Source: Candidatus Woesearchaeota archaeon
Lineage (GTDB): Archaea; Nanobdellota; Nanobdellia; Woesearchaeales; JACPBV01
DNA length: 64,000 nucleotides
Direction of reading: 5' to 3'
NCBI GenBank assembly: GCA_016180135.1
Contig: JACPBV010000009.1
Location: 19,248-83,247 of the forward strand
The notes under the pieces were generated by a model. That model did no database searches and was not told where the DNA came from. It worked only from the letters and a program-made list of their open reading frames with translations. A program made the position numbers and the translations under genes. Shown here in pieces: positions 7,822-34,887 of the stretch; positions within the stretch are counted from its first letter, which is position 1; each line of letters starts with the position of its first letter.

Positions 7822-8146
7822 AAAATTCCACCACCTATTTAAGCTTTGTGGAGATACCTCTATTTTAGTGTGATTAATTTAACTTTGAACAGAGCCGGAA
7901 TACCATTGTTTATGCTGAACCCTAATTATTGCCCATTTATAGATTTGAGCCCGTTTCCTGTTCAGTCCTCCTGGACTCCTAAACATTATTAAACCCTGGC
8001 TGAAAGATACATCGAAGAAATACGATGATTGAGGCTGCGCGCAATGTAATAAACTTCAATGCAATCCAAAGAACATTTAGCAGCCCTAGGAACCTTTAGC
8101 AATTCAAAAATCTTTTATCAATCCAAACACCTAAGGAAGTAGCCCA

Positions 8147-9226
8147 ATGGCAGAAAAAAAAATCGGGATGATCACCCCTTTCCCGCCGGAGCATGACGGC
8201 ATCGCTGTCTATGCTGATTCCCTCTGGCATGCGATGGGGAAGGGGAGGAAAAATGTCCGCATCATCGGAGGTATCCAGAGCAGGGCCCCTTTGAAAATTG
8301 ACAGCCGCTCGTTTGCCCTTAAAGCAAATCTCAATAAACTTATCGAAAAAGAGCATCTCAGCCTTCTCCACTTTCAGTATGTCCCTTCGTTGTTTGGCAG
8401 GCATACCCTGAACCTCAACCTCCTTGCAGCCATGGGCCTCCCGGTGAAGCGCATTGTCACCTTGCACGAAGTCCATGATGGGAAGGGCGGCCTTAAAAAC
8501 CGCATCCTCGAGCGCCTCCAGAGAGCCATAATTAAGAAAGCGGATGCTGTCATCGTCCACACCCCCGAGCAGAAGGAATTCCTCGATGAAAAATACCGCT
8601 CCAGTAACCTCCGCTGCATCCTTCAGGGAATGGAGGTAAGCTCCCGCCCGAAGGATTCCCCCAAAAAGAAAAACCTCTTGTTCTTTGGAATGATATCCTC
8701 TAAGAAAGGGGTGCCCTGCCTGATAGGAGCGATGCAGTATCTTCCTTATTACCACCTCCAGATTGCCGGAAGGTTTGTTGACCGTGGCGCAGAAGCCGAA
8801 GTGATGCAGGCGCTCAGGAAGCATGCGGCCCTGGCCCATCCCGGGAATATGCTTCCGCCCAATAATATTCAGACAGACTTTGGATGGATTTCAGAGCAAA
8901 AAAAATCAGAATACTACCAAAATGCCGATCTTGTTGTCCTTCCCTACACCTGGGCCCCTTACCAGTCCGCTGTGATGCAGGATGCCTTGGGCCACGGCCT
9001 TCCTGTCGTAGTCACCGACGTTGGTTATTTGCCGGAGATGGTCAGCATGTTCAATATCGGCGAGGTTGCAAGGCCGAACAACCCCTTCCTCCTTGCAGAA
9101 GCCATAATGAAAGTATTTTGCAGCTATAAAGAATACGGGAAGGGCATTTTGGCCTATCAGTCTAGGGCATCATGGAATGTGGTCGCAAAAGAGCACTTGC
9201 GCCTGTATAGGGAAGTTTTGCAATGA
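8147..9226 (+). CDS. Glycosyltransferase, GT-B fold, family 4-like
   Basis: N-terminus KKIGMITPFPPEHDGIAVYADSL. The C-terminal half reads FFGMISSKKG...DLVVLPYTWAPYQSAVMQDALGHGLPVVVTDVG, typical of GT4/GT1 enzymes. ORF 8096..8839 (-) is its antisense shadow. Confidence 0.85.
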   Translation: MAEKKIGMITPFPPEHDGIAVYADSLWHAMGKGRKNVRIIGGIQSRAPLKIDSRSFALKANLNKLIEKEHLSLLHFQYVPSLFGRHTLNLNLLAAMGLPVKRIVTLHEVHDGKGGLKNRILERLQRAIIKKADAVIVHTPEQKEFLDEKYRSSNLRCILQGMEVSSRPKDSPKKKNLLFFGMISSKKGVPCLIGAMQYLPYYHLQIAGRFVDRGAEAEVMQALRKHAALAHPGNMLPPNNIQTDFGWISEQKKSEYYQNADLVVLPYTWAPYQSAVMQDALGHGLPVVVTDVGYLPEMVSMFNIGEVARPNNPFLLAEAIMKVFCSYKEYGKGILAYQSRASWNVVAKEHLRLYREVLQ

Positions 9227-9311
9227 TCTCAAATCCCTCAAACCCATGTTAACTATAGTGAAGAAAGATTTATATATCCCAGCTTTATTAACATTCACGA
9301 GGTGATGTCCT

Positions 9312-9515
9312 ATGATGGGATGCAGAAAATGCATGGGAGTAAGCGGAGCAATCTTCCTTGTTTTAGGGTTGTTGTTCCTTTTGGTTGATTTGGGAATCTG
9401 GGACTTTTGGGGCATCCAGTGGTGGTCGGCAGTGCTGATTGTTTTAGGCATCGGCAAGCTGGCGATGAAGACGTGCCCGGACTGCATGGCGATTGCAACT
9501 GGAAAGAAGAAGTGA
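9312..9515 (+). CDS. Small membrane protein with paired CxxC motifs (67 aa)
   Basis: GCRKC...two hydrophobic helices...TCPDC. A GAGGTGAT-like sequence lies just upstream and a T-rich tract follows the stop. Confidence 0.5.
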   Translation: MMGCRKCMGVSGAIFLVLGLLFLLVDLGIWDFWGIQWWSAVLIVLGIGKLAMKTCPDCMAIATGKKK

Positions 9516-9518
9516 GTC

Positions 9519-9570
9519 TTTTCTTTATTCTTTTTTTATTTTGATTTTTCTTTAGTTTTTCCTTCAATTC
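9519..9570 (+). terminator. T-rich tract between convergent genes (archaeal oligo-T terminator candidate)
   Basis: gtcttttctttattctttttttattttgatttttctttagtttttcc lies directly after the stop at 9515 and before the transketolase stop at 9629. Confidence 0.4.
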
Positions 9571-9628
9571 TTTTGTTGTTTATTATCCCTTCCTCGCTTT
9601 GCTTTTTTCTAAAGTTGCCCCTGTTGCC

Positions 9629-11458
9629 CTATTTTTTCACTTCTTTAATAAACGCCTTTGCATCGATTCCCTCAAACTCCAGTAATTGCGCAGGCATCCC
9701 TGATTTCGGAACTTTTCTTACAGCGAGAGAAACAATGTCAACACCGGAATTAACCAAAGCGCCCGCAAGCATCTCTCCAATCCCGCCTTCCGGATAATGG
9801 TCTTCTGCCGCAATAACTTTGTTCCCGTGTTTCCTGGCAAAATCAATGAACTTTTTCCCGTTAAATGGCTTGATGCAAAAGAGGTCAATTACAGCAGCAT
9901 CAATACATTCTTTTTTCAGCTCATCATACGCCTTTACTGCCTCGTGCAGTGTTATTCCCGAGCCGCAAAGCACCGCTTTATCCTTCGATGATTCCTTAAC
10001 AACTTTAAACTCCCCTGGCTTGAACTGCTCTTTGCCGTCATACAAAACTGGCGTTTTTGCCCTCGTCGTCCGGATATATTTGACCCCGGGCAATGTCGCA
10101 GCCAAATGCACCAGCTTTTCGGCAGATACTGCGTCGGAAGGATAAAACACGGAACTATTTGGCAAAGCCCTGAACATCCCGATGTCCTCAAGCCCCATTT
10201 GCGATCCTCCATCCTCCCCAATGGAAACTCCAGCATGAGAGCCGCAGACAGTTATCGGAGGAGAGCTTAATGCCCCCATCCTGAGCTGGTCATGGGCTCT
10301 TGACAAAAACGCAGCAAACGTCGATGCAAACGGAACAAAGCCTCTTGAAGCGAGGCCTAGTGCCATCCCTATCATATTTTGCTCGGCAACAAAGCACTCC
10401 ACAAATTGCTCCGGTTTAACCTTCCTGACATCCTCGGCAAACGTGGAATTGCTTACCTCTGCATCAACCGCTAACACCGAGCTGTCAGCAAGCGCAAGCT
10501 GTGCAAGCGCTTTCCCATAAGCTTCCCTCGTTGCAGCAAGCTCCCCAATTTTGTAGGAGCTAAACCCGGCATCTCTCTTTTCCGCAGCCCGGATAAACTG
10601 CGCTTTTGGCTTTTCAATCTCAACGGCAGGCATTGCACTATCAGGAATTTCCTTCAATGCATTTTCCAGCTGGTCTTTCGGAACAGGCTTTCCATGCCAG
10701 CCGTCCTTATTCTCTAAAAACGAAACCCCTTTGCCCTTGAAAGTCTTGCAAATAATGACAATGGGCTGTTTTGAATTCCTCGCTTTAGAAAAAGCATCCA
10801 AAATCTCCCCTAAATTGTGCCCATCAATCAAATAAGCGTTCCATCCAAAGGCCTGAAACCTGTTCTTATACTGCTCAAGATGATGGCCCGGCATCGTCTC
10901 TCCGCGCTGCCCTAATCGGTTTGCATCGAGCACAGCAACTAAATTGTTCAGCTGGTAATGCGCAGCCAATTGCGCAGACTCATAAACACTTCCTTCTGCG
11001 CATTCGCTGTCTCCAAGTAAAACATAAGTCCTGAAATTCCTTTTCTGCAGCTTTCCGGCCAGCGCAACTCCAACGCCGATAGAAAGCCCCTGCCCTAAGC
11101 TTCCGGTGGCAAACTTCACCCAGTTTCCCGGATGAGGGACAGGATGCCCCTCTAAGATGCTCCCAAACTTTCGAAGAGAAAGTAAATCTGCCTTCAGGCA
11201 TCCAGCCCTCACAAGGCATGGATAAAGAATCGGAGCAGCATGACCCTTGCTGAGGATGAATTCATCATTATCAGGATTTTCAAAATTTTTCACATCATAT
11301 CTCATCTCATGGAAGAATAAGGCGGACATGATTTCAGCGCAGCTCATACAGGTTGTCGGATGCCCGCTCCCTGCCTCAGTCGTCATGCGCAAAGAATCTC
11401 TGCGGAGAATGTTGGCTATTGACTGGAGATCCTGAATGGATAGTTTTTTGTCGGGCAT
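9629..11458 (-). CDS. tkt: Transketolase (N- and C-terminal halves fused, 609 aa)
   Basis: GSGHPTTCMSCAEIMSALFF, LSKGHAAPILY, GSLGQGLSIGVGVALAGK, LLGDSECAEGSVYESAQLA, then the Pyr-domain motif FVECFVAEQNMIGMALGLASRGFVPFASTFAAF. Confidence 0.9.
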   Translation of the reverse strand: MPDKKLSIQDLQSIANILRRDSLRMTTEAGSGHPTTCMSCAEIMSALFFHEMRYDVKNFENPDNDEFILSKGHAAPILYPCLVRAGCLKADLLSLRKFGSILEGHPVPHPGNWVKFATGSLGQGLSIGVGVALAGKLQKRNFRTYVLLGDSECAEGSVYESAQLAAHYQLNNLVAVLDANRLGQRGETMPGHHLEQYKNRFQAFGWNAYLIDGHNLGEILDAFSKARNSKQPIVIICKTFKGKGVSFLENKDGWHGKPVPKDQLENALKEIPDSAMPAVEIEKPKAQFIRAAEKRDAGFSSYKIGELAATREAYGKALAQLALADSSVLAVDAEVSNSTFAEDVRKVKPEQFVECFVAEQNMIGMALGLASRGFVPFASTFAAFLSRAHDQLRMGALSSPPITVCGSHAGVSIGEDGGSQMGLEDIGMFRALPNSSVFYPSDAVSAEKLVHLAATLPGVKYIRTTRAKTPVLYDGKEQFKPGEFKVVKESSKDKAVLCGSGITLHEAVKAYDELKKECIDAAVIDLFCIKPFNGKKFIDFARKHGNKVIAAEDHYPEGGIGEMLAGALVNSGVDIVSLAVRKVPKSGMPAQLLEFEGIDAKAFIKEVKK

Positions 11459-25827: not shown

Positions 25828-27243
25828 TCAGTTCACAACCTCCTCCCTCGCCCTGCTCTCTAATACCATTTGCGCTTCTTTCATGAAATCTTCAACCTTT
25901 TCCCCTTTGATCATCGCTCCGGCAGCATACATATGCCCTCCTGCCTCCCCGCCTGCTTTTTCAGCGATTCTTTTGATGACATCCCTCAGGTCTATCCCGT
26001 TCCTTCCTGTCATGCGGAGCGAAACCTTGTAATTGCCGTCAAGCAGGTCAGCCATTGACATGATGAATGTCCCTTTCCTGAGCTTAGTGGATTTTGAAAG
26101 AATGGAAGCCATCGTCCCGATCATGCTTGCCTTGATGTCGCTCCCCGCATTGATGATAAGATATCCATCTCCTTTCATGACTTTCCCGCCATCCTTGTTT
26201 TCATCAAACCATCTCATCGCATTGATGATCATCTTCTTGTACCCTACCAGGCTGGCCATTGCCCTTTCTTTCGCTTTTTTATCCCCCAGGCATGCGCCGA
26301 TCCCCAGCGAGGCCTTATCCAGCCTCCCGCAGGCATTGAGCAAAGTCGAGAATTCTTTCATATCACGGAAAGGGCTTTCTTTTTCCTCTTCATTCAGGAT
26401 ATAGACATTCCCCAGCACATCTTCCGGCTTCTCTTCCCCCAATCTTCTGATGATGATCCCGGAAACCAGTTTTTTTATCTCTTCCTGGTCAAGGTGCACA
26501 ATCTTTCTCCATTCATTCCCATTCTTTGCCTGGATGCCCGTCTCATGCAAAAACTGGATTGCACCGGACTCGCTTCCGCTCACTCCGGGAATAAAAGGGT
26601 CAGTGCAGTATTCCAATACTTTATGCAGCGGCCTGGTCTGCGCCCCAAAAATACGGAGCCCTGTGATTACCTTTACTTTTCCGTTCCGGACAGCAATATC
26701 CAGGATTTCTTTGTTTAGTGTCAAAAATCCTTTCCCGTCTTCCTGGACATCCCCAGTTGCCCCCACAAGGGCGATCCCTGCGAGATCCTCAACTGCCTTG
26801 TTCAGGCCTTTTACAAAGAGATAGACAACTCCTGCCCCGGAAATCTCCTTGCCGCCATCAATCCCGAAGAGGTGCGGATTGACATGCACAAAACTGCTGG
26901 GCAGCTTGATCTTTTCCGGCTCATGATGGTCAAGCACGATCACCTGCCGGTCAAAAAGATGTTTCTTCAAAAAACTTAACTGCCCGGACCCAAGATCCGT
27001 AAAGATAAAATGTTCGTAAGGCTCTTTGCTCAATCCAAGGATGACATCATCGGTAAGCTGCTGCACGATGCTCAGAGAATATTTCCTGTTGTCTGTGTTC
27101 AGTGCCTTGACCATGATGGAGCATGCGCATATCCCGTCGGCATCAAGATGCGACACCAGCCGTATAGTCTCTTTCCGGTCAATCTCCTTAAACTTTTCAA
27201 GGCAGACAGCCATATACTCCTTGAATTGCGAATAGTTGTCCAT
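25828..27243 (-). CDS. DHH/DHHA1 phosphoesterase, archaeal RecJ/GAN-like nuclease
   Basis: SHLDADGICACSIM (motif I), FTDLGSG (II), VLDHHEP (III), GATGD (IV), and the DHHA1 motif GGHMYAAGA. Confidence 0.85.
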   Translation of the reverse strand: MDNYSQFKEYMAVCLEKFKEIDRKETIRLVSHLDADGICACSIMVKALNTDNRKYSLSIVQQLTDDVILGLSKEPYEHFIFTDLGSGQLSFLKKHLFDRQVIVLDHHEPEKIKLPSSFVHVNPHLFGIDGGKEISGAGVVYLFVKGLNKAVEDLAGIALVGATGDVQEDGKGFLTLNKEILDIAVRNGKVKVITGLRIFGAQTRPLHKVLEYCTDPFIPGVSGSESGAIQFLHETGIQAKNGNEWRKIVHLDQEEIKKLVSGIIIRRLGEEKPEDVLGNVYILNEEEKESPFRDMKEFSTLLNACGRLDKASLGIGACLGDKKAKERAMASLVGYKKMIINAMRWFDENKDGGKVMKGDGYLIINAGSDIKASMIGTMASILSKSTKLRKGTFIMSMADLLDGNYKVSLRMTGRNGIDLRDVIKRIAEKAGGEAGGHMYAAGAMIKGEKVEDFMKEAQMVLESRAREEVVN

Positions 27244-27322
27244 GAAAACACCTTAAATAAAATTGAGTAAAACAAATTTTTCCGGGCAAGCTTATATTTA
27301 TAACTTTGTAATCATTGATAGG

Positions 27323-27494
27323 GAAAGATTACATTTCGGAAGAAATGCTAATCTTGAAGAAATGTCTCAATACATTTCGAAAGATTACCTTTCCGAAGAA
27401 AGGCTAATCTTGAAGAAATGTCTCAATACATTTCGAAAGATTACCTTTCCGAAGAAAGGCTAATCTTGAAGAGATGCGACCGCAGGAGCATTTC
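27323..27494. repeat. 56-bp tandem direct repeat, about 2.7 copies
   Basis: Units start at 27323, 27379 and 27435. Units 1 and 2 differ at 3 of 56 positions. Unit 3 is identical to unit 2 for 40 nt and then diverges. Unit junctions create the palindrome TTTCGAAA. Confidence 0.9.
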
Positions 27495-27819
27495 GAAATG
27501 ACCTAAACCGCTAATTTTGCACATTTGTGATTTGAAAGGGGCACAAATTGAATCGGCATATAAAGAAACAATCCATCCCCCATGGTGTATTCAGATGATT
27601 TCTCTTTCGTTGAAAATGCCCTACTCACCACTTCAAAGGGAGCAGTCCCCGACAAATCGGTACTTTGGAAAGATTGTTTACGAATCCAACAACATCGGCG
27701 AGGCGAGGGCAGGGGTTGTTGCCGACCAAAGGGAGCGCAACTAGAAAAAAGCGTTAGCTTTTTGCGTGCTGCTAACCCGGGCGAAGCGAGATTTTGAACA
27801 GAGCCACCAAAAGATAAAC

Positions 27820-27827
27820 TTTAAATA
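27820..27827 (+). promoter_or_regulatory. TATA-box candidate for the giant surface-protein gene
   Basis: TTTAAATA is centred ~40 nt upstream of ATG 27864. GGTGTGGGG lies between it and the ATG. Confidence 0.35.
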
Positions 27828-27863
27828 CTTCACCTTTCAAGATTAAAAAAAGATGGTGTGGGG

Positions 27864-30800
27864 ATGAAAAAAGGGGCAATCCTCTTTGTCATTGCGCTTC
27901 TTGGTGCAGGCGCAATCTTGTTCTTTTCGAGTTTGAGCTACGCTGCATCATGCTGGACTTATGCTTCCAATACGACTTGCACAGTTGAAAATGGCTGCGC
28001 ATGGAAATCAGATGCTTGGGGAAGCTGGTGCCAGGAGCTTTCCTGCTGGAGCCTGGAAAACCAGACAGCCTGCACAGGAACAGTTGTCCCGGGAAAGAAT
28101 TGCACATGGACCCCTGGCCACGAATCTTTTTTTTGCACCGAAACAGACTGCTGGAATGGTTTTTCCGGAACGTCTGCCTCCGGATGTGAAAATAACACCC
28201 AAAACTTCAGCTGCAAATGGGCATCTTCCTGTTATAGCATAGGAGGCACCGGGTGTTACAATAAACTTACTCAGGAAGGTTGCACGAATGCGACAGGATG
28301 TGCATGGGGCCAATGCATGCAGAAGAATTGTTATGAATATTCAGATCAGAGCACCTGCAGGGCATCCAAAGGATTTAACAGCCTTAACTGCACTTGGGAC
28401 AGCTCAAATAATTACTGCCGTGAAACAAGCTGCTGGGACTCAAAGATTTACCCCAACCAATCAACCTGCGACGGCGCCGAGAATGGGCTTTGCCTCTGGA
28501 AGTGGGGTTCATGCCAGCAGAAAGCCTGCTACGGCTATGATTTTACCAATGCTTCTGCCTGTGAAAATAACACTGCCGGCCTAAAATGCCTTTGGTCCTC
28601 AGGCTCGTTTTGTGACACTGACACCTGCTGGAAATCAACGACGAATGCAACCTGCGCTGCCAAGCCTAAATGCCTATGGAAGGGCTACAAGAGTTCCGGC
28701 TGGTGTGAGGAAGTGAACTGCTGGAATTGGGACGAGGCCGATGGCTATAATGAAAGCGCTTGCGTGGAAAATCCGTATGGTATCAGCTGTGTGTGGAGCG
28801 GTAATGGGACGGGGACAGGCACCTGCAGCAAGAATATTGCCCAGGTAAAATGCTCCAACATAACGACAGAAAGGTCCTGCATGGACACTTATTATTGCTG
28901 GTGGGAATATTCAAGCTTCAACAACCTGAGCGCAGGTGGCCTCTGTAAGGAGCCTTCATGGGGAAACGGCTCTTTTTCCAGCGGAAGTATCATCAATGAC
29001 TGGAATCCCGGATGCTACATCTTTGACTTTAATGAATCCAACTGCAACAAGACGCTGGGATGCAATTTCACCGGCAGCGTTTGTGACGAGGCCATAAACA
29101 CTTATGGAAGCAACATCTCTGCCGATGGCATCGATTGCTCTTTTATCAACAGCTCGGACTTATGCTCAAGCATTGCTGTGTTGTCCTCTTGCTGCACATG
29201 GAATAATGGGACGTGCCAGAAAGAGACTTATGGCTCCTCATGCTACAATCAGCTGTCCCAGACCCCTGGCGGTGAAAAGTCCTGTGAAGATGCAGAGGCT
29301 AAGGGAAATTGTGAAAAAATTGCCGGCTCTCCGTGGTATATGCCCTGCAAATGGGAGAACTCTTCCCAAAAATGCACCCTGAAATCTGATCAGGTTTTTG
29401 GGAACACATCATCAAAAAGCCTCGTTACCATCGAAAACCAAAAGACCTGTGAGTATGCTGGCGGCAAGTGGGTGACTGAAAATTATTGCGAGGGCAACAT
29501 TTCTGTCCCGACAGGAAGGTGCGAGTACAAGTTTGACGATGAGGAAAATTGCGACAAGGCTTGCTTTGCCTGCGAAAAAAGAGACAGCGATGGCAACACC
29601 ATCAACAGCAGCAACGCAAAAACGGCATGTGAAGCCAGCAATCTGGGCTTCTGTGAATTTACGGGAAGCGCCAATGCTCCTAACACCATTGGTTTCTGCA
29701 AGGCAAAGGAAGAATGGAAGAAAGGGCTTGCAGGGGATTGTGATGCGAATTGCGCTGACTGCACCTTCAAGGGGAATTCTGCCTCGAATGACACGACCAA
29801 GATCCCCAGCCATTATTGCCTGAACAGCAAGGCTAATTCCGCTGGCGGCGGCTGCAAATGGATTGCAGACAACACGACAGGGACCGGAGGCTATTGCATG
29901 AACAAAGGTGAAAAGACCTGTGAGGACGCCTGTGACCGCTGCAAGGCCCAGACGGATTGCGCTAATCTGGGAAGGACGAGTGTGGCTAATCAGACAGGAA
30001 GCTGCAAGTGGGAGGGGACAGAGACTGAGGGCTCTTGTGCCGCAAATATCGGCGAAGATGTGGAGACTTGCTGGGATGGAGTCGATAATGATAATGATGA
30101 GCTGGTTGACTGCGCAGATCCTGCCTGTTTTGCTGATTCTTTCTGCGGTCTTGTGGATGGGGACTGCTTTGGATGGACTGATAACACAAGCTGCAAGACG
30201 AATGGCTGTGAATGGATCAGTGATAAATGGGGAAGCTGGTGCGACTTCAAGGGCAGCAATTGCTGGAAATATGACACAAACAGCTCATTGTGCCAGGATC
30301 AGTCATCGTGCATCTGGAATAATGGTACTGGAAATTCCTATTGCGAGCGTGACTGGAGTATCGCTGAGCAATGCACAGCCCTGAATGAAACTCCATGCCT
30401 GGCAAACTCGGTATGCTCCTGGACGAATGATACTTGGTGTGAGAGCAGCGGAAAAGGCACGAGCTGGTGCGCTTCATCAGGAGGCTGGTGTGACCATAAT
30501 GATTTCAAGCCAAAGAACTGTTGGCAGTATGCCAACAAGGGAAACTGCTCTTCGCAGGCAGGCTGCTCCTGGAAGAGAAATGCTTATTCAAATCCTTACT
30601 GCTCTGTTGATTGGAGCGGCAATTGCTGGAATAATTATAATAATGCCTCATGCAGCAGCGCAGGATGCGCATGGAGGAACGAAACTATTGGCGGAACCTC
30701 AAACAGGTCAGCGTGGTGCGAGAACAATATGAGCATCTGCTGGTGGAAATCGTCAAGAGGGGACTGTGAGGGTATATCTGGTGGGAAATGCAGTTGGAGC

Positions 30801-33800
30801 ACCCAGAGTTGGGGAAGTTATTGTGATGCAGGATGTTATGCGGTCAATGTTACGGGAAACCAGACAAACTGCCAGGGCATTTCAGGCTGTTCGTGGATAG
30901 ATGAAAGCGGATGGTGCGAGGAGCAGCAGTCCACAACCTGTTATAATTCTTCAAATGCAAATAACCAGGCTAATTGTTCAGCCGCTTCCGGCTGCAGGTG
31001 GAAAAATTCAGGGTGGTGCTCCCCAAGAGAAGGCTTCAGCCCGGGAGCAGTTTCATCAGCAGGAGGCATTGGAACTTCCTTTGGCTCGGAATGTTATAAC
31101 AACAAAAACAAGTCTGCCTGTAAAAATAACACCCAGAATATCAGCTGCGGCTGGTTTGCGGAAACAAATCCATTCTGTGATGTTGATTGGGGAAAGAACT
31201 GCTGGAACCAAAGCTCTCAGGCCAACTGCGTAGGCAGTGGCTGCTGGTGGAGCAACAATTCCTACGGCTCAAGCTGCATGACCCTTTATGACCAGTGTTA
31301 TATGAACATGACCCTTCAGAACAATCTTACTTTATGCAGGCAGAACCAGTATTGCAAGAACTCAAGCTGGAGCACCTGTGAGCCCGTCTGTTCAGCAAAC
31401 GCTACTGAATCTTCATGCAATGGGCAGTCAGGCTGCAAATGGGTAGCCGGATGGTGCAATCCCGGAAGCATGAATGACATCTTTGACAAGATTGAAGGGG
31501 GTGCTCCCGTTGTTATCGGGTATGACCTCTGCGTCAATGACACTCCTCAGGCGAGCGTCGATATCTGCGGCTTTGGCATGAAAGACATGGAAGATTCTTT
31601 CGGCTTTGGCGTGGATGTAAAGGACTTCAGCAATGCTTCAGTCTGCAACAAGGAGAAAATCCTGACAGAAGGCTCTGAAATATTTGGCGCAGGTAATGAG
31701 AGTGTTGAATTGTTTGTCTATCTGGATACGGACGGCTCTTCGGCCGGCGGCTGTGCATTAAGCGATAATATCACTGCTGAGGGCTATGAGTTCCGCTTCA
31801 GGTATTCAAGCGCCTGGAGCACCAACAAGAGCAAGGCAGTTGAGACCTTTAACGCCTACCAGTGCGACAGCTCAAAATGGGCGAGCACCGATATCAAGAT
31901 CAGCGCATGGAAAAAATTGATGTGCTCGGATATTGGCGGGGCGATGGTAGCCATCAAGAAGGGCGATTTGGCAAAATATCCGACATTGTATAACTCTAAG
32001 AAAGACATGAGAATCTATGTTTCAACGGTTGGGAACACCGGGAATGCCTCCAGCCCGAGCGATACTGCCGGCCCCGGTTATATCAGCCCTGGCTCCGTTG
32101 ATTTTGAGATAACCGACGTCTTTTCTTATGGGGCCGATGTGGCTAAATTTGAGGATATCCTTAAGAAAGGCTATGTCCAGTATGAGGATTGCTTTAACGG
32201 CATTGATGATGACACGGATAACTCGACAGACTGCTTTGATTGGGACTGCCAATACTCATCCAAGTGCACCGGTTCCGGAATCAATGGCGCAGGCTTCAAT
32301 GACACCAGCTCTCCGTTGGTGACTGGGGTGAAGATTGAGGAGTATCCTGACAGTGCTTTGGTGATGTATGATACCAACAAGCCGACGAATGGCTCTTTGA
32401 AATTCTACGCTAATGACAGCAAGTGCACAACCCTGAACGCCACGGTCAGGGACATCGGCATTACAAGCGCCTCGATGCGGGATTACAAGCTTTGGCATAC
32501 TGCAGACATCTATAATGATACCCTCGGCTATGCATTGGCAAACGAGACAAAATATTATTTCAAGCTGGAAGTCTGTGACTCCGGAGGCAAGTGCGCCCTG
32601 AGCAAATGCTCTTCACTGAAGACTGCCAAGAAGGGGAAGTGCGGGTTCTGCAGTTTTGTGGCAAGGATAAAATCCCCCGAAGGCTGGTCTGTGGGCTTTG
32701 ATGCTGACAGGGACGGAACCTATGAGCACATACAGGGCACAGTCTGCGGTCCGAAGGCAGGCATGAAGATGAACTACACCTTGGGGAGAAAGGTCAATAT
32801 CAAGATTAACAATTCAGATGGCTCAATTTATTTTGAATTTATTAATGCCTCGCTGACAAAGACCGGCTTGAATGACAAGGTGAGGAGCATCAGCGATTCC
32901 GGCGACATTATCGGGACGAGCGCGATAGCCGGCTTTACCTCTGAGACAAGGGACAAGCTCATCAACAACCTCCATCCTGAAACCTGCCGTGTCAAGATTC
33001 CTTTTTCAGGAACCTGTGATGCTATCTTCCACTGTGATGACAGCGGTGCAAATTGTGTGAACCGCACCAATGTTTCCACCTTGATCAATGCGACAACCTG
33101 CGCATGGGAAATTCCTTTCTGTGAGTTCTCAACTTATAGGGAGGCTGCTGCAGCAGGCGGAAGCAGCAGTAGCAGCAGTTCAAGTGGCGGTGGCGGTGGA
33201 GGCGGTGGTGGAGGCGGAGGTGGCGGTGGCGGTGCCGCGGTTGGCTCAAAGGGAAAGTCCGAAACGGTCAACTCAGGAAAATTCAATGCAGGCGAGACTA
33301 AGGTTGTAGATATTGTGTCCTCGCAAATAGCAGTGGATGAGATTGAACTGACACTAAAAAACACAATCACTGCCTCGACGGTTACGGTTATAGATGCTTT
33401 GGAGGATAACCTCGATTCAACTTCCCCTCTTTCACCTGGCGATGGGAAGGCAGTTTACCATTACCTGAAGATTACCCTGGGAAAGATCTCAAACGCCGCT
33501 CTTGCCAAAGCCATCGTCAGGTTTAAGGTTCCAAGAGTGGAGTTTTTTGACCCGTCAAGCGTCGTGCTCAAAAGATACGGCAGTTCTGAAAAGTCCTGGA
33601 CAACCCTTCCGACGGCATTCGTCAGAGAAGATGCTTTGTTTCAGTATTATTCCGCCGAGACCCCTGGGTTCTCAGTCTTTGCGATTGTGGGTAGCAAAGT
33701 CCCCGTTGAACAGAGGGCAGCTTCCGGGGCCGCTGAAGATGCAATCCAGCCTCAGGCTGAGGACCTGCAGCCTGCTGCGCCGGAAAATGCTTCCGCCCCT

Positions 33801-33929
33801 GACGATCCTTCCGAAATTCAGGAAACAAGCGCTGGGAACCCTCTGGGAAAGTTATATGTGCTGATTCTTGTGTTATTATCTCTTATCATAATCTCAGCCG
33901 TTATCAAAAAGAAAAAACTGCAGAAATAA
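27864..33929 (+). CDS. Giant secreted, C-terminally membrane-anchored cysteine-rich surface protein (~2021 aa) with a PGF-pre-PGF-like domain
   Basis: Signal peptide MKKGAILFVIALLGAGAILFFSSLSYAAS. There are dozens of C-x(4-10)-C-x-W-x(2-9)-C-x4-C-[WY] modules up to about aa 1230, and many N-x-[ST] sequons. A Ser8/Gly16 hinge is followed by a domain ending ...YYSAETPGFSVFAIVG. The C-terminus is a TM helix plus KKKKLQK. Confidence 0.9.
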   Translation: MKKGAILFVIALLGAGAILFFSSLSYAASCWTYASNTTCTVENGCAWKSDAWGSWCQELSCWSLENQTACTGTVVPGKNCTWTPGHESFFCTETDCWNGFSGTSASGCENNTQNFSCKWASSCYSIGGTGCYNKLTQEGCTNATGCAWGQCMQKNCYEYSDQSTCRASKGFNSLNCTWDSSNNYCRETSCWDSKIYPNQSTCDGAENGLCLWKWGSCQQKACYGYDFTNASACENNTAGLKCLWSSGSFCDTDTCWKSTTNATCAAKPKCLWKGYKSSGWCEEVNCWNWDEADGYNESACVENPYGISCVWSGNGTGTGTCSKNIAQVKCSNITTERSCMDTYYCWWEYSSFNNLSAGGLCKEPSWGNGSFSSGSIINDWNPGCYIFDFNESNCNKTLGCNFTGSVCDEAINTYGSNISADGIDCSFINSSDLCSSIAVLSSCCTWNNGTCQKETYGSSCYNQLSQTPGGEKSCEDAEAKGNCEKIAGSPWYMPCKWENSSQKCTLKSDQVFGNTSSKSLVTIENQKTCEYAGGKWVTENYCEGNISVPTGRCEYKFDDEENCDKACFACEKRDSDGNTINSSNAKTACEASNLGFCEFTGSANAPNTIGFCKAKEEWKKGLAGDCDANCADCTFKGNSASNDTTKIPSHYCLNSKANSAGGGCKWIADNTTGTGGYCMNKGEKTCEDACDRCKAQTDCANLGRTSVANQTGSCKWEGTETEGSCAANIGEDVETCWDGVDNDNDELVDCADPACFADSFCGLVDGDCFGWTDNTSCKTNGCEWISDKWGSWCDFKGSNCWKYDTNSSLCQDQSSCIWNNGTGNSYCERDWSIAEQCTALNETPCLANSVCSWTNDTWCESSGKGTSWCASSGGWCDHNDFKPKNCWQYANKGNCSSQAGCSWKRNAYSNPYCSVDWSGNCWNNYNNASCSSAGCAWRNETIGGTSNRSAWCENNMSICWWKSSRGDCEGISGGKCSWSTQSWGSYCDAGCYAVNVTGNQTNCQGISGCSWIDESGWCEEQQSTTCYNSSNANNQANCSAASGCRWKNSGWCSPREGFSPGAVSSAGGIGTSFGSECYNNKNKSACKNNTQNISCGWFAETNPFCDVDWGKNCWNQSSQANCVGSGCWWSNNSYGSSCMTLYDQCYMNMTLQNNLTLCRQNQYCKNSSWSTCEPVCSANATESSCNGQSGCKWVAGWCNPGSMNDIFDKIEGGAPVVIGYDLCVNDTPQASVDICGFGMKDMEDSFGFGVDVKDFSNASVCNKEKILTEGSEIFGAGNESVELFVYLDTDGSSAGGCALSDNITAEGYEFRFRYSSAWSTNKSKAVETFNAYQCDSSKWASTDIKISAWKKLMCSDIGGAMVAIKKGDLAKYPTLYNSKKDMRIYVSTVGNTGNASSPSDTAGPGYISPGSVDFEITDVFSYGADVAKFEDILKKGYVQYEDCFNGIDDDTDNSTDCFDWDCQYSSKCTGSGINGAGFNDTSSPLVTGVKIEEYPDSALVMYDTNKPTNGSLKFYANDSKCTTLNATVRDIGITSASMRDYKLWHTADIYNDTLGYALANETKYYFKLEVCDSGGKCALSKCSSLKTAKKGKCGFCSFVARIKSPEGWSVGFDADRDGTYEHIQGTVCGPKAGMKMNYTLGRKVNIKINNSDGSIYFEFINASLTKTGLNDKVRSISDSGDIIGTSAIAGFTSETRDKLINNLHPETCRVKIPFSGTCDAIFHCDDSGANCVNRTNVSTLINATTCAWEIPFCEFSTYREAAAAGGSSSSSSSSGGGGGGGGGGGGGGGGAAVGSKGKSETVNSGKFNAGETKVVDIVSSQIAVDEIELTLKNTITASTVTVIDALEDNLDSTSPLSPGDGKAVYHYLKITLGKISNAALAKAIVRFKVPRVEFFDPSSVVLKRYGSSEKSWTTLPTAFVREDALFQYYSAETPGFSVFAIVGSKVPVEQRAASGAAEDAIQPQAEDLQPAAPENASAPDDPSEIQETSAGNPLGKLYVLILVLLSLIIISAVIKKKKLQK

Positions 33930-33957
33930 ACTGCCGGAATAACATATCTGAAAAAAG

Positions 33958-34010
33958 ATTCTAAAGAAAAATACTAAAGAAAATTACTAAAGAAAGATAC
34001 TAAGGGAAAC
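33958..34010. repeat. 13-bp tandem repeat x4 (ATACTAAAGAAAA-like)
   Basis: CTAAAG/CTAAGG recurs at 33961, 33974, 33987 and 34000. Confidence 0.85.
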
Positions 34011-34070
34011 AGTCACTTTTGGGCCATAGCTGACGGCAATCTTTACGCTGCCCCTCTACTCTTTTCTCCC

Positions 34071-34754
34071 TCACTCCCCAAACCTTCTCTCCCTCCGGGA
34101 AAATTCCTCCAAACACCCGAAAAAGTCTTCTTTGGAAAACTCCGGCCACATCGCATCTAAAAACATCAGCTCAGCATAAGCGCTCTGCCAGAGGAGAAAA
34201 TTGCTCAGCCGCTTCTCGCCGCCCGGCCGTATCAGCAGATCGACATCATCGGGAACGCTGAGGGACTGACTAACATCTTCCTCCGCCACAGGATTCGCTG
34301 CCTTTTCCTTAAGGATCCCAAGCGCATCCGCAATCTCCATCCTTGCCCCATACGCCATCGCAAGGTTGAGCTTAAATCCCCCATTTGCTCTTGTCTCCTC
34401 CATAATCCTGAGCATCTCTTTTTGAAGCTCCCTGGGAAACATTGATATTTTTCCGATAACAGAGATTTTAACCCCATGCTCCCTGATGACGGGATCTTTG
34501 CTGAACCCCGATATTTTCTTTTGGAACATCCTGAACAAAAAGTCTATCTCATCCTTACCCCGCTTGAAGTTCTCCGTAGAAAAGCAATACAGCGTCAGCT
34601 CTTTTACTCCGGCTTCGATGCACCACAGCATCGCTTCTTTGATCTTCTCCAGCCCTCGTTCATGCCCCTTTGATGCAGGCAGCCCGTGTGCTTTTGCCCA
34701 CCGCCTGTTCCCGTCAAGGATGATTGCAACGTGCGAAGGTATTTTCCTGCCCAT
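34071..34754 (-). CDS. uppS: Undecaprenyl/tritrans,polycis-prenyl diphosphate synthase (cis-prenyltransferase)
   Basis: HVAIILDGNRRWA, TLYCFSTENFKR, RPGGEKRLSNFLLWQSAYAEL. Start trimmed to MGRKIPSH. Confidence 0.9.
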   Translation of the reverse strand: MGRKIPSHVAIILDGNRRWAKAHGLPASKGHERGLEKIKEAMLWCIEAGVKELTLYCFSTENFKRGKDEIDFLFRMFQKKISGFSKDPVIREHGVKISVIGKISMFPRELQKEMLRIMEETRANGGFKLNLAMAYGARMEIADALGILKEKAANPVAEEDVSQSLSVPDDVDLLIRPGGEKRLSNFLLWQSAYAELMFLDAMWPEFSKEDFFGCLEEFSRRERRFGE

Positions 34755-34887
34755 AGTGATGAAAAACAATCTCGCCTATATATGCTTTCCTGAGATATAT
34801 TGGGGGCCAACAATACTGGAGCATTATGAAGCTTGGCAGAGCCCCGCTCCGAGGGGAGCTTAATAAATACTGAGAACGATTTTTCTA

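What the first reader, a model, noticed from the sequence alone, without database searches (positions are those of the whole stretch)
27864..33929. 2021-aa surface protein built from dozens of four-cysteine C-x-W...C-x4-C-[WY] modules
After a signal peptide, about 1200 residues are tiled with a ~26-30-aa module. Examples are C TVENG C AWKSDAWGSW C QELS C W, C ENNTAGLK C LWSSGSF C DTDT C W and C SSQAG C SWKRNAYSNPY C SVDWSGN C W.

The consensus is C-x(4-10)-C-x-W-x(2-9)-C-x(4)-C-[WY]. The modules form two blocks (about aa 32-540 and 765-1230) separated by a differently spaced Cys-rich segment. N-x-[ST] sequons are very dense (NQT, NAT, NCT, NTS...).

Such a disulfide-dense, glycosylated giant is unusual for an archaeon. 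It implies an efficient extracytoplasmic oxidative-folding capacity (see the triple-thioredoxin protein at 6457-7821). I do not recognise the module as a named domain.
Basis: seen in the sequence. Interest (0 to 1): 0.6.

Follow-up and report, generated by a model that had tools for sequence, protein, structure and literature searches.

The report
Giant disulfide-rich DPANN surface glycoprotein
This gene encodes a real 2,021-residue, membrane-anchored, heavily glycosylated surface protein of a tiny (Woesearchaeota-type) archaeon, built mostly from about 27 copies of an unnamed two-disulfide mini-domain; it belongs to a widespread but undescribed family that close relatives can lack, so it is more likely an accessory surface coat or contact fibre than the basic cell wall.

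Summary
The ORF (27864-33929, +) is real: 2021 aa, 152 Cys, 73 Trp, 72 N-glycosylation sequons (about 30 expected). More than 120 full-length relatives exist in DPANN archaea. Among the 97 closest, all 152 cysteines are conserved, which rules out an assembly chimera.

The repeat is a ~33-aa unit, C[WY]-x7-8-C-x4-9-C-x-W-x5-15-C. There are 15-16 canonical and about 11 degenerate copies. AlphaFold models each as a short helix plus a beta-hairpin. Paired cysteine loss points to 1-3/2-4 disulfides. Pfam, NCBIfam, PDB and BFVD give no significant match for the module. It recurs only in DPANN proteins and in choanoflagellate mucin-like membrane proteins.

Downstream lie three 6-Cys units, two acidic Ca-type knots, three beta-sandwich domains, a Ser/Gly hinge, a PGF-pre-PGF domain and a TM anchor. 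There is no PGF signal and no archaeosortase.

A same-family genome has an empty site where this gene sits. The gene tree conflicts with taxonomy. I therefore favour an accessory outer coat or contact fibre over the primary S-layer.

The proposed link to the triple-thioredoxin protein is not supported by co-occurrence. VKOR occurs in half of the ortholog-bearing genomes but not in this one.

The parts
27820..27827 (+). Consensus archaeal TATA box (TTTAAATA), about 36 nt upstream of the start codon. A GGTG Shine-Dalgarno-like element lies at 27855-27858.
   Evidence: Read directly from the sequence. A similar TTTAAATA precedes the distant homologue in L027.
27864..27950 (+). Sec-type signal peptide, aa 1-29 (MKK, hydrophobic core, SYAAS|C).
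   Evidence: Sequence. All full-length homologues start with an equivalent signal peptide.
27951..29519 (+). Cys-module block 1, aa 30-552. It holds 56 Cys, equal to 14 four-Cys units. The first 8-9 are canonical and the rest degenerate.
   Evidence: Regex and profile HMM. AF2 gives pLDDT of about 80-90, with each unit a 3-10 turn, a short helix and a beta-hairpin.
29520..30068 (+). Middle region, aa 553-735. It contains three 6-Cys repeats starting with C-[DE]-x-[AN]-C-x2-C. Non-Cys/Trp identity to homologues is 55%.
   Evidence: Cys spacing, conservation, lower AF2 confidence.
30069..30164 (+). Acidic double-disulfide knot 1, aa 736-767 (CWDGVDNDNDELVDCADPACFADSFC). Probably binds Ca2+.
   Evidence: NCBIfam NF033662 scores 39.7 bits against a cut-off of 41. 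The family profile matches the teneurin-4 fragment 7plp at E 0.006.
30165..31457 (+). Cys-module block 2, aa 768-1198. It holds 50 Cys, about 12 units, 7-8 of them canonical. It is the most indel-prone part.
   Evidence: Paired loss of C1176 and C1191 in six homologues points to a C1-C3 bond.
31458..32183 (+). Beta-sandwich domain A, aa 1199-1440. Contains the C1223-C1235 pair.
   Evidence: AF2 pLDDT of about 90. Generic beta-sandwich matches only. Paired Cys loss.
32184..32273 (+). Acidic double-disulfide knot 2, aa 1441-1470 (CFNGIDDDTDNSTDCFDWDCQYSSKC).
   Evidence: Second stretch of NF033662. Invariant Cys and Asp columns.
32274..32651 (+). FN3/Ig-like beta-sandwich domain B, aa 1471-1596.
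   Evidence: AF2. Foldseek FN3 matches at E 4e-4 to 1e-2.
32652..33143 (+). Domain C, aa 1597-1760, with 13 strands and 1 helix. It ends in the near-invariant motif C-x-W-x2-P-x-C-E-F-S-T-[YW].
   Evidence: AF2. The motif is present in 110 of 117 homologues. The whole C-terminal model gave a Foldseek match to the BAI3 GAIN+HormR structure 4dlo (prob 1.0, E 5e-3, 162-166 columns). The aligned region was not shown, so assigning that match to this domain is my inference and only a lead.
33144..33254 (+). Ser8/Gly16 flexible hinge, aa 1761-1797.
   Evidence: Sequence. AF2 pLDDT below 50.
33255..33698 (+). PGF-pre-PGF beta-sandwich domain, aa 1798-1945. It is part of a genome-specific stalk cassette.
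   Evidence: TIGR04213 at E 4e-18, 65.9 bits against a cut-off of 28. It is 41-48% identical to the stalks of two other proteins in this genome (C15, C26; the C42 paralogue ends in a similar hinge-and-anchor stalk), but about 7% identical to the stalks of orthologues.
33699..33833 (+). Acidic, Pro/Ala-rich linker, aa 1946-1990.
   Evidence: Sequence. AF2 pLDDT below 50.
33834..33929 (+). C-terminal TM helix (about aa 1996-2014), KKKKLQK tail and stop codon. There is no PGF tripeptide.
   Evidence: Sequence, AF2 helix. No PGF-CTERM hit. No archaeosortase in the genome, with positive controls working.

Best explanation
This is a Sec-exported type-I membrane glycoprotein that forms part of the outer coat of a Woesearchaeota-type DPANN cell.

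Shown or strongly indicated:
- There is a signal peptide and a C-terminal TM anchor with a Lys tail.
- A stalk of Ser/Gly hinge plus PGF-pre-PGF domain is reused by other surface proteins of the same genome.
- The base is conserved. It comprises three beta-sandwich domains, two acidic 4-Cys knots and three 6-Cys units.
- About 27 mini-domains of roughly 33 aa make up the rest.
- The closest subfamily has a fixed even number of cysteines (152).
- About 40 sequon positions are conserved.

Inferred:
- The 152 cysteines form 76 intradomain disulfides, 1-3/2-4 in each mini-domain.
- AglB glycosylates the conserved sequons.
- The chain of mini-domains forms a stiff, protease-resistant, glycan-covered rod or canopy tens of nanometres long that projects beyond the membrane-proximal base.
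- The conserved base makes the protein-protein contacts. The variable module surfaces (33% identity outside Cys/Trp) face the environment or a host cell.

Because close relatives lack the gene and its tree conflicts with taxonomy, I read it as an accessory coat, spacer or contact fibre rather than the indispensable lattice-forming S-layer subunit.
For: - The ORF, signal peptide, anchor and domain hits come.
- The family has more than 120 full-length homologues at 40-58% identity, all from DPANN.
- All 152 Cys are conserved in at least 80% of 97 homologues, and 150 of them in at least 90%.
- Paired Cys losses occur at 1176+1191, 1223+1235 and 1593+1596.
- Sequons are 2.4-fold enriched and positionally conserved. 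The genome has two AglB genes.
- AF2 models give mean pLDDT 74 (N-terminal part) and 81 (C-terminal part). Modules fold as helix plus hairpin and the base as beta-sandwiches.
- Conservation falls in a gradient: base 55-59%, modules 33%, stalk 7%.
- The stalk cassette is shared within the genome.
- The same module occurs in choanoflagellate type-I mucin-like membrane proteins.
- Module number varies: about 41 in P0123, and one module is deleted in three homologues.
- Same-family genome G117 has an empty site between DHH/GAN and UppS. Closed genomes lack the ectodomain.
- The gene tree is incongruent with family and order labels.
Against: - There is no expression, localisation or binding data.
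- Codon adaptation is unremarkable, at the 46th percentile.
- Strict conservation of architecture, neighbours that are housekeeping genes, an acidic pI of 4.7 and a consensus TATA box would also fit a primary S-layer subunit.
- Rod length and extended shape are inferred only.
- No recognised adhesin or lectin domain was found.
Confidence: 0.5

Rival explanations
1. It is the principal lattice-forming S-layer (cell-wall) protein of those Woesearchaeales/Pacearchaeales that carry it. The conserved base would tile the surface and the Cys-module region would form an outer canopy.
For: - No S-layer protein has been determined for any DPANN, and proposed candidates are unrelated Ig-fold proteins (Kato et al., bioRxiv 10.1101/2023.10.27.564410).
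- The protein is large, acidic (pI 4.7), sequon-rich and TM-anchored through a stalk.
- There is one orthologue per genome.
- Neighbours are housekeeping genes and the TATA box is consensus.
- The base domains are strongly conserved.
Against: - A same-family genome has an empty syntenic site and no homologue.
- Closed genomes of the order lack the ectodomain.
- Only about 48 of 301 sampled genomes show the N-terminal part.
- The gene tree conflicts with taxonomy.
- There is no codon-usage signal.
- The genome has another large, sequon-rich protein (1574 aa, 88 sequons) on the same stalk cassette.
Confidence: 0.27
2. It is a two-part surface protein made by self-cleavage. Domain C would be a GAIN-B-like autoproteolytic module that cuts at the invariant E-F|S. 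The 1,730-residue ectodomain would then stay non-covalently bound to the stalk, by analogy with adhesion GPCRs and polycystin-1. This could coexist with either reading above.
For: - The whole C-terminal model matches the BAI3 GAIN+HormR structure 4dlo_A/B in Foldseek (prob 1.00, 162-166 aligned columns, rmsd 5.5-6 A).
- Domain C has 13 strands and one helix and is about 165 aa long. From my own knowledge, GAIN subdomain B is of similar size and strand count.
- The motif C-x-W-x2-P-x-C-E-F-S is present in 110 of 117 homologues, exactly at the junction between the conserved ectodomain and the variable stalk.
- An acid / hydrophobic / Ser sequence parallels the His-Leu|Thr of GAIN cleavage sites.
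Against: - The Foldseek E-value is only 5e-3, TM normalised to the target is 0.28, and the aligned region was not shown.
- Pfam hits nothing on this segment, including the GPS and GAIN models in that library.
- The helical GAIN subdomain A is absent.
- The paralogue and distant relatives have G-F-S-T-Y or G-Y-S-T-Y without the acidic residue. F-S-T-Y may therefore simply be the last beta-strand.
Confidence: 0.1
3. Some or all of the cysteines bind metals (Zn knuckles, or Fe-S at the three C-x3-C-x2-C motifs) rather than forming disulfides. The protein would then be an extracellular redox or metal-binding scaffold.
For: - The C-x3-C-x2-C spacing occurs three times in the middle region.
- AF2 confidence is lowest in that region.
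- No VKOR or DsbB was detected in this genome.
Against: - The leader is Sec-type, which is the route for proteins exported unfolded.
- The Cys number is even and Cys are lost in pairs.
- The four-Cys units fold confidently without a ligand in AF2.
- There is no CxxCH or ferredoxin motif (sequence; Pfam).
- VKOR is present in 12 of 25 genomes with orthologues.
Confidence: 0.05
4. The long ORF is an assembly artefact, a chimera across repeats.
For: None found.
Against: - 97 full-length collinear homologues come from independent NCBI, JGI, ENA and Logan assemblies, with every Cys column conserved.
- The repeats are only about 30-40% identical to one another. That is too diverged to misassemble.
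Confidence: 0.01

Closest known systems
Unnamed 4-Cys module of loricate choanoflagellate type-I membrane proteins (Savillea parva EP00038_P027267, Stephanoeca diplocostata EP00041_P037619)
   Same: The pattern is the same: C-[FW]-x3-[ND]-Q-x2-C-x4-5-C-x-W-x6-9-[FWY]-C. hhalign gives 94.5% probability and E 8e-8. These proteins are among the few non-DPANN hits in 1.84 billion representative proteins.
   Different: In choanoflagellates the modules are separated by Ser/Thr/Pro mucin-like linkers rather than abutting. The proteins lack the DPANN base domains. Neither side has been described. Homology, transfer and convergence cannot be told apart here.
Rod-forming disulfide mini-domain arrays: EGF-like, laminin-EGF and TNFR/furin-type Cys-rich repeats; protist coat proteins (Giardia VSP, Paramecium surface antigens, Pfam PF01508)
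   Same: Both have tandem 30-45-aa units with two or three disulfides, N-glycans and a type-I membrane anchor, and form a surface coat. 1-3/2-4 pairing is common in such modules. Paramecium_SA gives a sub-threshold hit (17 bits against 21.2, E 0.008).
   Different: No Pfam model reaches threshold. The helix-plus-hairpin unit has no Foldseek relative. The CXXC motifs and CRGKA tail of VSPs are absent.
Archaeal PGF-CTERM/archaeosortase-sorted surface glycoproteins (e.g. Haloferax volcanii S-layer glycoprotein)
   Same: Both have a signal peptide, dense N-glycosylation, acidic character and a C-terminal hydrophobic anchor. This protein also has a PGF-pre-PGF domain (TIGR04213).
   Different: It has no PGF tripeptide and no PGF-CTERM hit, and the genome has no archaeosortase. 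It presumably stays anchored by its TM helix. The ectodomain is Cys-module based, not a chain of Ig-like domains.
Teneurin-4 fragment (PDB 7plp) and NCBIfam NF033662, the acidic double-disulfide repeat
   Same: The two knots share the motif C-x-D-x2-D-N-D-x-D-x-L-[IV]-D-C-x-D-x2-C.
   Different: These are marginal scores (E 0.006; 39.7 bits against a 41-bit cut-off). Only about 30 residues of a 2021-residue protein are involved. Ca2+ binding is inferred, not shown.
Proposed DPANN S-layer proteins (NEQ300 of Nanoarchaeum equitans, MJ1_0160 of Nanobdella aerobiophila, Micr_00292 of Micrarchaeum harzensis)
   Same: All are large, N-glycosylated, secreted envelope proteins of DPANN archaea.
   Different: Those are about 1000 aa and built of Ig-like folds. 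They are not described as Cys-rich, and MJ1_0160 was reported to have no C-terminal TM helix. I did not compare the sequences directly because they were not available to the tools.

Membership tests
PGF-pre-PGF domain proteins (TIGR04213) | HMM score above the curated cut-off | tested here: met
   65.9 bits against a cut-off of 28, E 3.9e-18, aa 1801-1943.
PGF-CTERM / archaeosortase A substrates | A PGF tripeptide at the start of the C-terminal TM helix (TIGR04126) and an archaeosortase in the genome | tested here: not met
   The C-terminus reads ...NPLGKLYVLILV...KKKKLQK with no PGF. There is no PGF-CTERM hit in NCBIfam. The genome has no TIGR04178 or PF09721 hit, while the TIGR04178 search hit its Haloferax, Methanosarcina and Methanocaldococcus controls. 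The genome is only 88% complete.
Acidic double-disulfide repeat (NF033662) | HMM score above the curated cut-off | tested here: inconclusive
   39.7 bits against a cut-off of 41, with two stretches. The motif is clearly present twice and is conserved in homologues.
Named Cys-rich repeat families (EGF, PSI PF01437, VSG C-terminal PF10659, Paramecium_SA PF01508, and others in Pfam) | Pfam HMM match at or above the gathering score | tested here: not met
   The whole protein and module segments were scanned at E up to 10. The only hit was Paramecium_SA at 17 bits, below its 21.2-bit cut-off. PSI and VSG-CTD, suggested by earlier notes, did not appear.
Known archaeal S-layer protein families | Sequence or structural match to a characterised S-layer protein, and lattice formation | tested here: not met
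   No Pfam or NCBIfam S-layer model hit. The PDB profile search and the top 50 Foldseek matches contain no S-layer structure. Lattice formation cannot be tested with these tools.
GAIN domain (autoproteolytic, GPS motif) | GAIN-B fold plus a C-x-C-x-H-L|T GPS motif, with Pfam GPS or GAIN match | tested here: inconclusive
   Foldseek matches 4dlo at prob 1.0 but E 5e-3 and target TM 0.28, with the aligned region unknown. There is no Pfam hit. An invariant C-E-F-S stands in place of C-x-H-L-T. Cleavage was not testable.
Giardia VSP-type coat proteins | Frequent CXXC motifs and a conserved CRGKA cytoplasmic tail | tested here: not met
   Cys spacings are mostly 4-11 residues and CXXC occurs only four times. 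The tail is KKKKLQK.

The most novel reading that the evidence does not exclude
The family could be the missing cell-envelope protein of a large part of the Woesearchaeales/Pacearchaeales. That would be a new architectural class of archaeal envelope. A disulfide-stapled, glycan-coated 'fur' of about 27-41 mini-domains would stand on a conserved, Ca-stabilised base. It might be released from its genome-specific stalk by GAIN-like self-cleavage at the invariant E-F|S. The mini-domain would be shared with choanoflagellate surface mucins.
Probability: 0.2. Interest if true: 0.8.

Novelty: new variant of a known kind. Interest (0 to 1): 0.55.

Why it matters
- Woesearchaeota and Pacearchaeota are among the most widespread uncultured archaea. 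Nothing is known experimentally about their envelope or about how they contact other cells.
- The family is conserved, easy to recognise and absent from Pfam and the PDB. Its 76 predicted disulfides and roughly 40 conserved glycosites make it a concrete target for envelope proteomics, antibodies or FISH-type labelling, and structural work.
- It defines a new mini-domain that should be added to domain databases.
- It raises a real question: how do mostly anaerobic, genome-reduced cells oxidise so many extracellular cysteines? VKOR is present in only about half of the carriers.
- The presence/absence polymorphism and the tree incongruence suggest that surface-coat genes are exchanged or lost among DPANN lineages. 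This bears on host range and on virus or predator pressure.

Tried and rejected
- **Pfam:** scans of the whole protein, nine segments (five C-terminal and middle, four module-block), two single modules and three homologues gave nothing above threshold.
- **Structure search:** Foldseek of the N-terminal model against PDB and BFVD found no match with E below 0.05.
- **Phages:** tblastn of block 1 against 50,697 phage records found no match.
- **PDB profile search:** only the teneurin knot and low-complexity linker noise appeared.
- **Conserved partner gene:** none was found. UppS is adjacent only here and in one other locus. DHH/GAN is adjacent in 3 of 18 loci.
- **Codon adaptation as an expression proxy:** 46th percentile, uninformative.
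- **Homology to Nanoarchaeales S-layer candidates:** a 1402-aa relative from a 0.5-Mb genome carries no name in the collection, so the link could not be made.
- **Archaeosortase:** the first search (PF09721) had a weak control, so it was repeated with TIGR04178.
- **Disulfide map from the models:** model coordinates are not exposed. Connectivity had to be inferred from paired Cys loss.

Full report
**1. The observation**

The + strand ORF from 27864 (ATG; an in-frame GTG lies at 27858) to 33929 encodes 2021 aa. It contains 152 Cys, 73 Trp and 72 N-x-S/T sequons.

In the ectodomain, several features are enriched over 2000 composition-preserving shuffles:
- Sequons: 71 observed against 29.5 +/- 4.7.
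- C-x-W: 27 against 6.4 +/- 2.4.
- C-[WYF]: 29 against 17 +/- 3.7.

A looser pattern matches 15 times. A profile built from 14 units finds 15-16 canonical copies and about a dozen degenerate ones.

By cysteine count, aa 30-552 hold 56 Cys (14 units) and aa 768-1198 hold 50 Cys (about 12 units). 'About two dozen' describes it better than 'dozens'.

The natural phase begins at C-[WY], immediately after the predicted signal-peptide cleavage site (AAS|CW).

The middle segment (553-735) is three 6-Cys repeats that open with C-[DE]-x-[AN]-C-x2-C. An acidic 4-Cys knot follows at 736-767.

**2. Not an artefact, and not a singleton**

The search for homologous proteins returned more than 120 near-full-length relatives of 1850-2150 aa at 40-58% identity. 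Nearly all that carry a name are labelled Woese-, Pace-, Aenigm- or Nanoarchaeota MAG proteins (one partial hit carries a bacterial MAG label), annotated 'hypothetical' or 'PGF-pre-PGF domain-containing'.

In my MAFFT alignment of 97 full-length members, every one of the 152 Cys columns is conserved in at least 80% of sequences, and 150 of them in at least 90%. Most members have exactly 152 Cys.

Across the wider family, taken from genome loci, the Cys count ranges from 138 to 206. Some members carry about 41 modules, for example P0123 at 2543 aa.

The modules within the protein are only about 30-40% identical to each other. Independent assemblies give collinear proteins. Together these exclude a repeat-collapse chimera.

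**3. Architecture**

- NCBIfam finds a PGF-pre-PGF domain at aa 1801-1943 (TIGR04213, 65.9 bits). It also finds two copies of the acidic double-disulfide repeat (NF033662, 39.7 bits, just under the 41-bit cut-off).
- Pfam finds nothing in the whole protein or in segments. The only exception is a sub-threshold Paramecium surface-antigen hit.
- AlphaFold2 with a 61-sequence alignment models aa 29-1228 at mean pLDDT 74 and pTM 0.36. Each unit is a 3-10 turn, a short helix carrying the second Cys, and a beta-hairpin carrying C-x-W and the fourth Cys.
- The C-terminal model (aa 1199-2021) has mean pLDDT 81 and pTM 0.66. In order, it shows:
  - a beta-sandwich (about 1213-1418);
  - the second acidic knot;
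  - an FN3-like sandwich (1486-1590);
  - a 13-strand domain (1597-1760);
  - a disordered Ser8/Gly16 hinge;
  - the PGF-pre-PGF sandwich;
  - a disordered acidic/Pro linker;
  - a TM helix.
- Foldseek finds no relative for the N-terminal model in PDB or BFVD. For the C-terminal model it finds only generic FN3/Ig matches, plus one notable hit to the BAI3 GAIN+HormR structure.
- A family profile searched against PDB sequences matches only a teneurin-4 fragment (7plp), at the first acidic knot, with E 0.006. I take that fragment, from my own knowledge, to be the teneurin cysteine-rich, Ca-binding region.

**4. Disulfides and glycans**

Model coordinates are not exposed, so I inferred connectivity from evolution.
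- Six homologues lose C1176 and C1191 together. These are the first and third Cys of the last module.
- Eighteen or nineteen homologues lose C1223 and C1235, largely the same sequences.
- One homologue loses C1593 and C1596.

This supports 1-3 pairing in the module, and hence 2-4. It also supports disulfides rather than metal sites. It rests on one module and is an inference.

Forty of the 72 sequons sit in the same alignment column in at least half of the homologues, and 25 in at least 70%. Many lie at a fixed place just before the second Cys of a module. The genome encodes two AglB/STT3 oligosaccharyltransferases.

**5. Anchoring**

The C-terminus has a TM helix and a KKKKLQK tail but no PGF tripeptide. 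No PGF-CTERM model hits. The genome is 88% complete and has no archaeosortase by TIGR04178, a search whose positive controls worked. The protein therefore most likely stays anchored by its TM helix.

The hinge, PGF-pre-PGF domain and TM form a 'stalk'. This stalk is 41-48% identical to the C-termini of two other exported proteins in the same genome: a 1574-aa protein with 88 sequons and a 421-aa protein. The 1773-aa paralogue on contig C42 ends in a similar hinge-and-anchor stalk. By contrast, the stalk is only about 7% identical to the stalks of orthologues. It is a genome-specific anchoring cassette.

**6. Where else the module occurs**

A 33-position profile of the module was searched against 1.84 billion representative proteins. 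It gave only 76 hits at E <= 1e-3.
- The ten I looked up comprise eight DPANN or unnamed metagenomic proteins and two type-I, mucin-like membrane proteins of the loricate choanoflagellates Savillea parva and Stephanoeca diplocostata.
- In the choanoflagellate proteins the same four-Cys unit stands alone between Ser/Thr/Pro linkers.
- hhalign between the two module sets gives 94.5% probability and E 8e-8.

The 'phage tail fibre' part of that note was not reproduced. Within this genome the module occurs only in this protein.

**7. Core or accessory?**

Arguments for a core structural role:
- Homologues sit among housekeeping genes, including aEF-2, ribosomal proteins and LeuRS.
- The promoter has a consensus TTTAAATA box.
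- The mature protein is acidic, with pI 4.7 and a mass of 215 kDa before glycans.
- The base is strongly conserved.

Arguments against:
- Only 76 of 301 sampled genomes of the phylum match at E <= 1e-20. About 48 of these include the Cys-module part.
- Closed genomes of the same order lack the ectodomain.
- The same-family genome G117 keeps the local gene order (DHH/GAN, UppS, hypothetical, methyltransferase and onward). There, DHH/GAN and UppS lie 142 bp apart, with no giant gene between them and no homologue elsewhere.
- In a maximum-likelihood tree of 19 orthologues plus the paralogue, the window's protein groups with 100/100 support with one same-order genome and two genomes of other orders. 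Families f12 and f32 are split. Well-supported branches force at least three label changes. This indicates horizontal exchange, or old paralogy followed by loss.
- Codon adaptation is average.
- No partner gene is conserved.

**8. Oxidative folding**

It is plausibly an extracytoplasmic, PDI-like oxidoreductase.

However, it occurs in 70 of 301 genomes and in only 4 of the 25 genomes with strong orthologues. VKOR occurs in 12 of those 25 genomes, some apparently as longer ORFs of about 280 aa. It was not found in this genome. Ten of the 25 show neither protein.

The genome also encodes other giant Cys-rich exported proteins, with 131, 100, 98 and 87 Cys. Extracellular disulfide formation is therefore a general need of this organism. 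Its machinery is only partly identified.

**9. Interpretation**

The safest statement is that this is a membrane-anchored, N-glycosylated, disulfide-stapled component of the cell surface.

The conservation gradient runs from 55-59% in the base, to 33% on module surfaces, to 7% in the stalk. This fits a model in which the base makes conserved protein contacts and the chain of mini-domains is the exposed part.

By analogy with EGF- and TNFR-type arrays, which span about 2-3 nm per 40 aa (established knowledge, not measured here), 27 units could span several tens of nanometres.

Three observations lead me to favour an accessory coat, spacer or contact fibre (0.5) over the primary S-layer subunit (0.27):
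- the gene can be absent from a near relative;
- its tree conflicts with taxonomy;
- its module number varies.

The near-invariant C-x-W-x2-P-x-C-E-F-S motif lies at the junction between ectodomain and stalk (110 of 117 homologues). Together with the GAIN-like Foldseek hit, it gives a testable side hypothesis of self-cleavage (0.1). That hypothesis is weakened because the paralogue and distant relatives keep only F/Y-S-T-Y.

**10. Literature**

Full-text searches were run on DPANN, Woesearchaeota or Pacearchaeota combined with S-layer, surface protein, cysteine-rich or disulfide, and on 'PGF-pre-PGF'. They found no description of this family.

A 2023 preprint on Nanobdella states that no DPANN S-layer protein has been determined. 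The candidates it lists (NEQ300, MJ1_0160, Micr_00292) are about 1000-aa Ig-fold proteins.

Two earlier follow-ups in this scan examined orthologues in other genomes and reached similar descriptive conclusions.
- the paired-loss evidence for disulfide connectivity;
- the positional conservation of sequons;
- the genome-specific stalk cassette;
- the empty site in a near relative and the tree incongruence;
- the VKOR and triple-Trx distribution;
- the E-F-S/GAIN lead.

Noticed in passing
window 6457-7821 (-): A membrane-anchored protein with three extracytoplasmic thioredoxin-like domains (CPQC, CQLC, CRAC) and sequons, giving a PDI-like architecture. Homologues occur in 70 of 301 genomes of the phylum. 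They are not co-distributed with the giant protein (4 of 25 genomes with strong orthologues).
   Followed up: partly
own genome, contigs C40:55487-61612, C18:30428-35215, C44:9158-15685, C42:2642-7963, C28:20451-38933, C44:74366-89332: The 1.5-Mb genome encodes several other giant exported or membrane proteins. Four are Cys-rich (2041 aa with 131 Cys; 1595 aa with 100; 2175 aa with 98; 1773 aa with 87, which is the paralogue). Two exceed 4900 aa. None carries the CW module.
   Followed up: partly
window 33144-33929; own genome C15:8126-12850, C26:33409-34674, C42:2642-7963: The Ser/Gly hinge, PGF-pre-PGF domain, linker and TM helix form a genome-specific cassette. It is 41-48% identical between this protein and the C15 and C26 proteins of this genome, and the C42 paralogue ends in a similar stalk. 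Between orthologues in other genomes it is only about 7% identical. This suggests intragenomic homogenisation or cassette swapping.
   Followed up: partly
L033 (G117:C2) 7922-10135, compared with window 25828-34769: In a same-family genome the DHH/GAN gene and UppS are 142 bp apart and downstream synteny is kept. This is an empty site where the 6.7-kb giant-gene region sits in the window.
   Followed up: yes
window 33120-33134 (aa 1753-1757, C-E-F-S-T): The motif C-x-W-x2-P-x-C-E-F-S is near-invariant and lies at the end of the conserved ectodomain, immediately before the variable hinge. It might be a self-cleavage site of the GAIN or GPS type. Only a weak structural hit supports this.
   Followed up: partly
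P0134, P0141, P0156 (choanoflagellate proteins): The same four-Cys/Trp module occurs 6-9 times per protein, separated by mucin-like linkers, in type-I membrane proteins of Savillea parva and Stephanoeca diplocostata. P0156 has the same architecture, but its source was not looked up.
   Followed up: partly
window 27323-27494: A 56-bp tandem repeat (about 2.7 copies) lies in the 620-bp divergent intergenic region between the DHH/GAN gene and the giant gene. It is already listed as a separate first-stage finding.
   Followed up: no
window 34071-34769 (-) and 8147-9226 (+): A cis-prenyltransferase (UppS family, for the dolichol or undecaprenol carrier) lies directly downstream of the giant gene, and a GT1/GT4 glycosyltransferase lies nearby. 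UppS adjacency recurs in only one other homologue locus (L007).
   Followed up: partly
own genome C40:43221-46841: The aEF-2 ORF is 1206 aa. Residues 1-47 and 477-1201 align to a 723-aa EF-2, leaving an insert of about 430 aa near the GTP-binding region. This may be an intein.
   Followed up: no
G236, G057, G294, G133, G097 (VKOR hits): Several ortholog-bearing Woese/Pacearchaeales genomes have VKOR in ORFs of about 280 aa, against about 135-165 aa elsewhere. These may be fusions of VKOR to a second domain.
   Followed up: no
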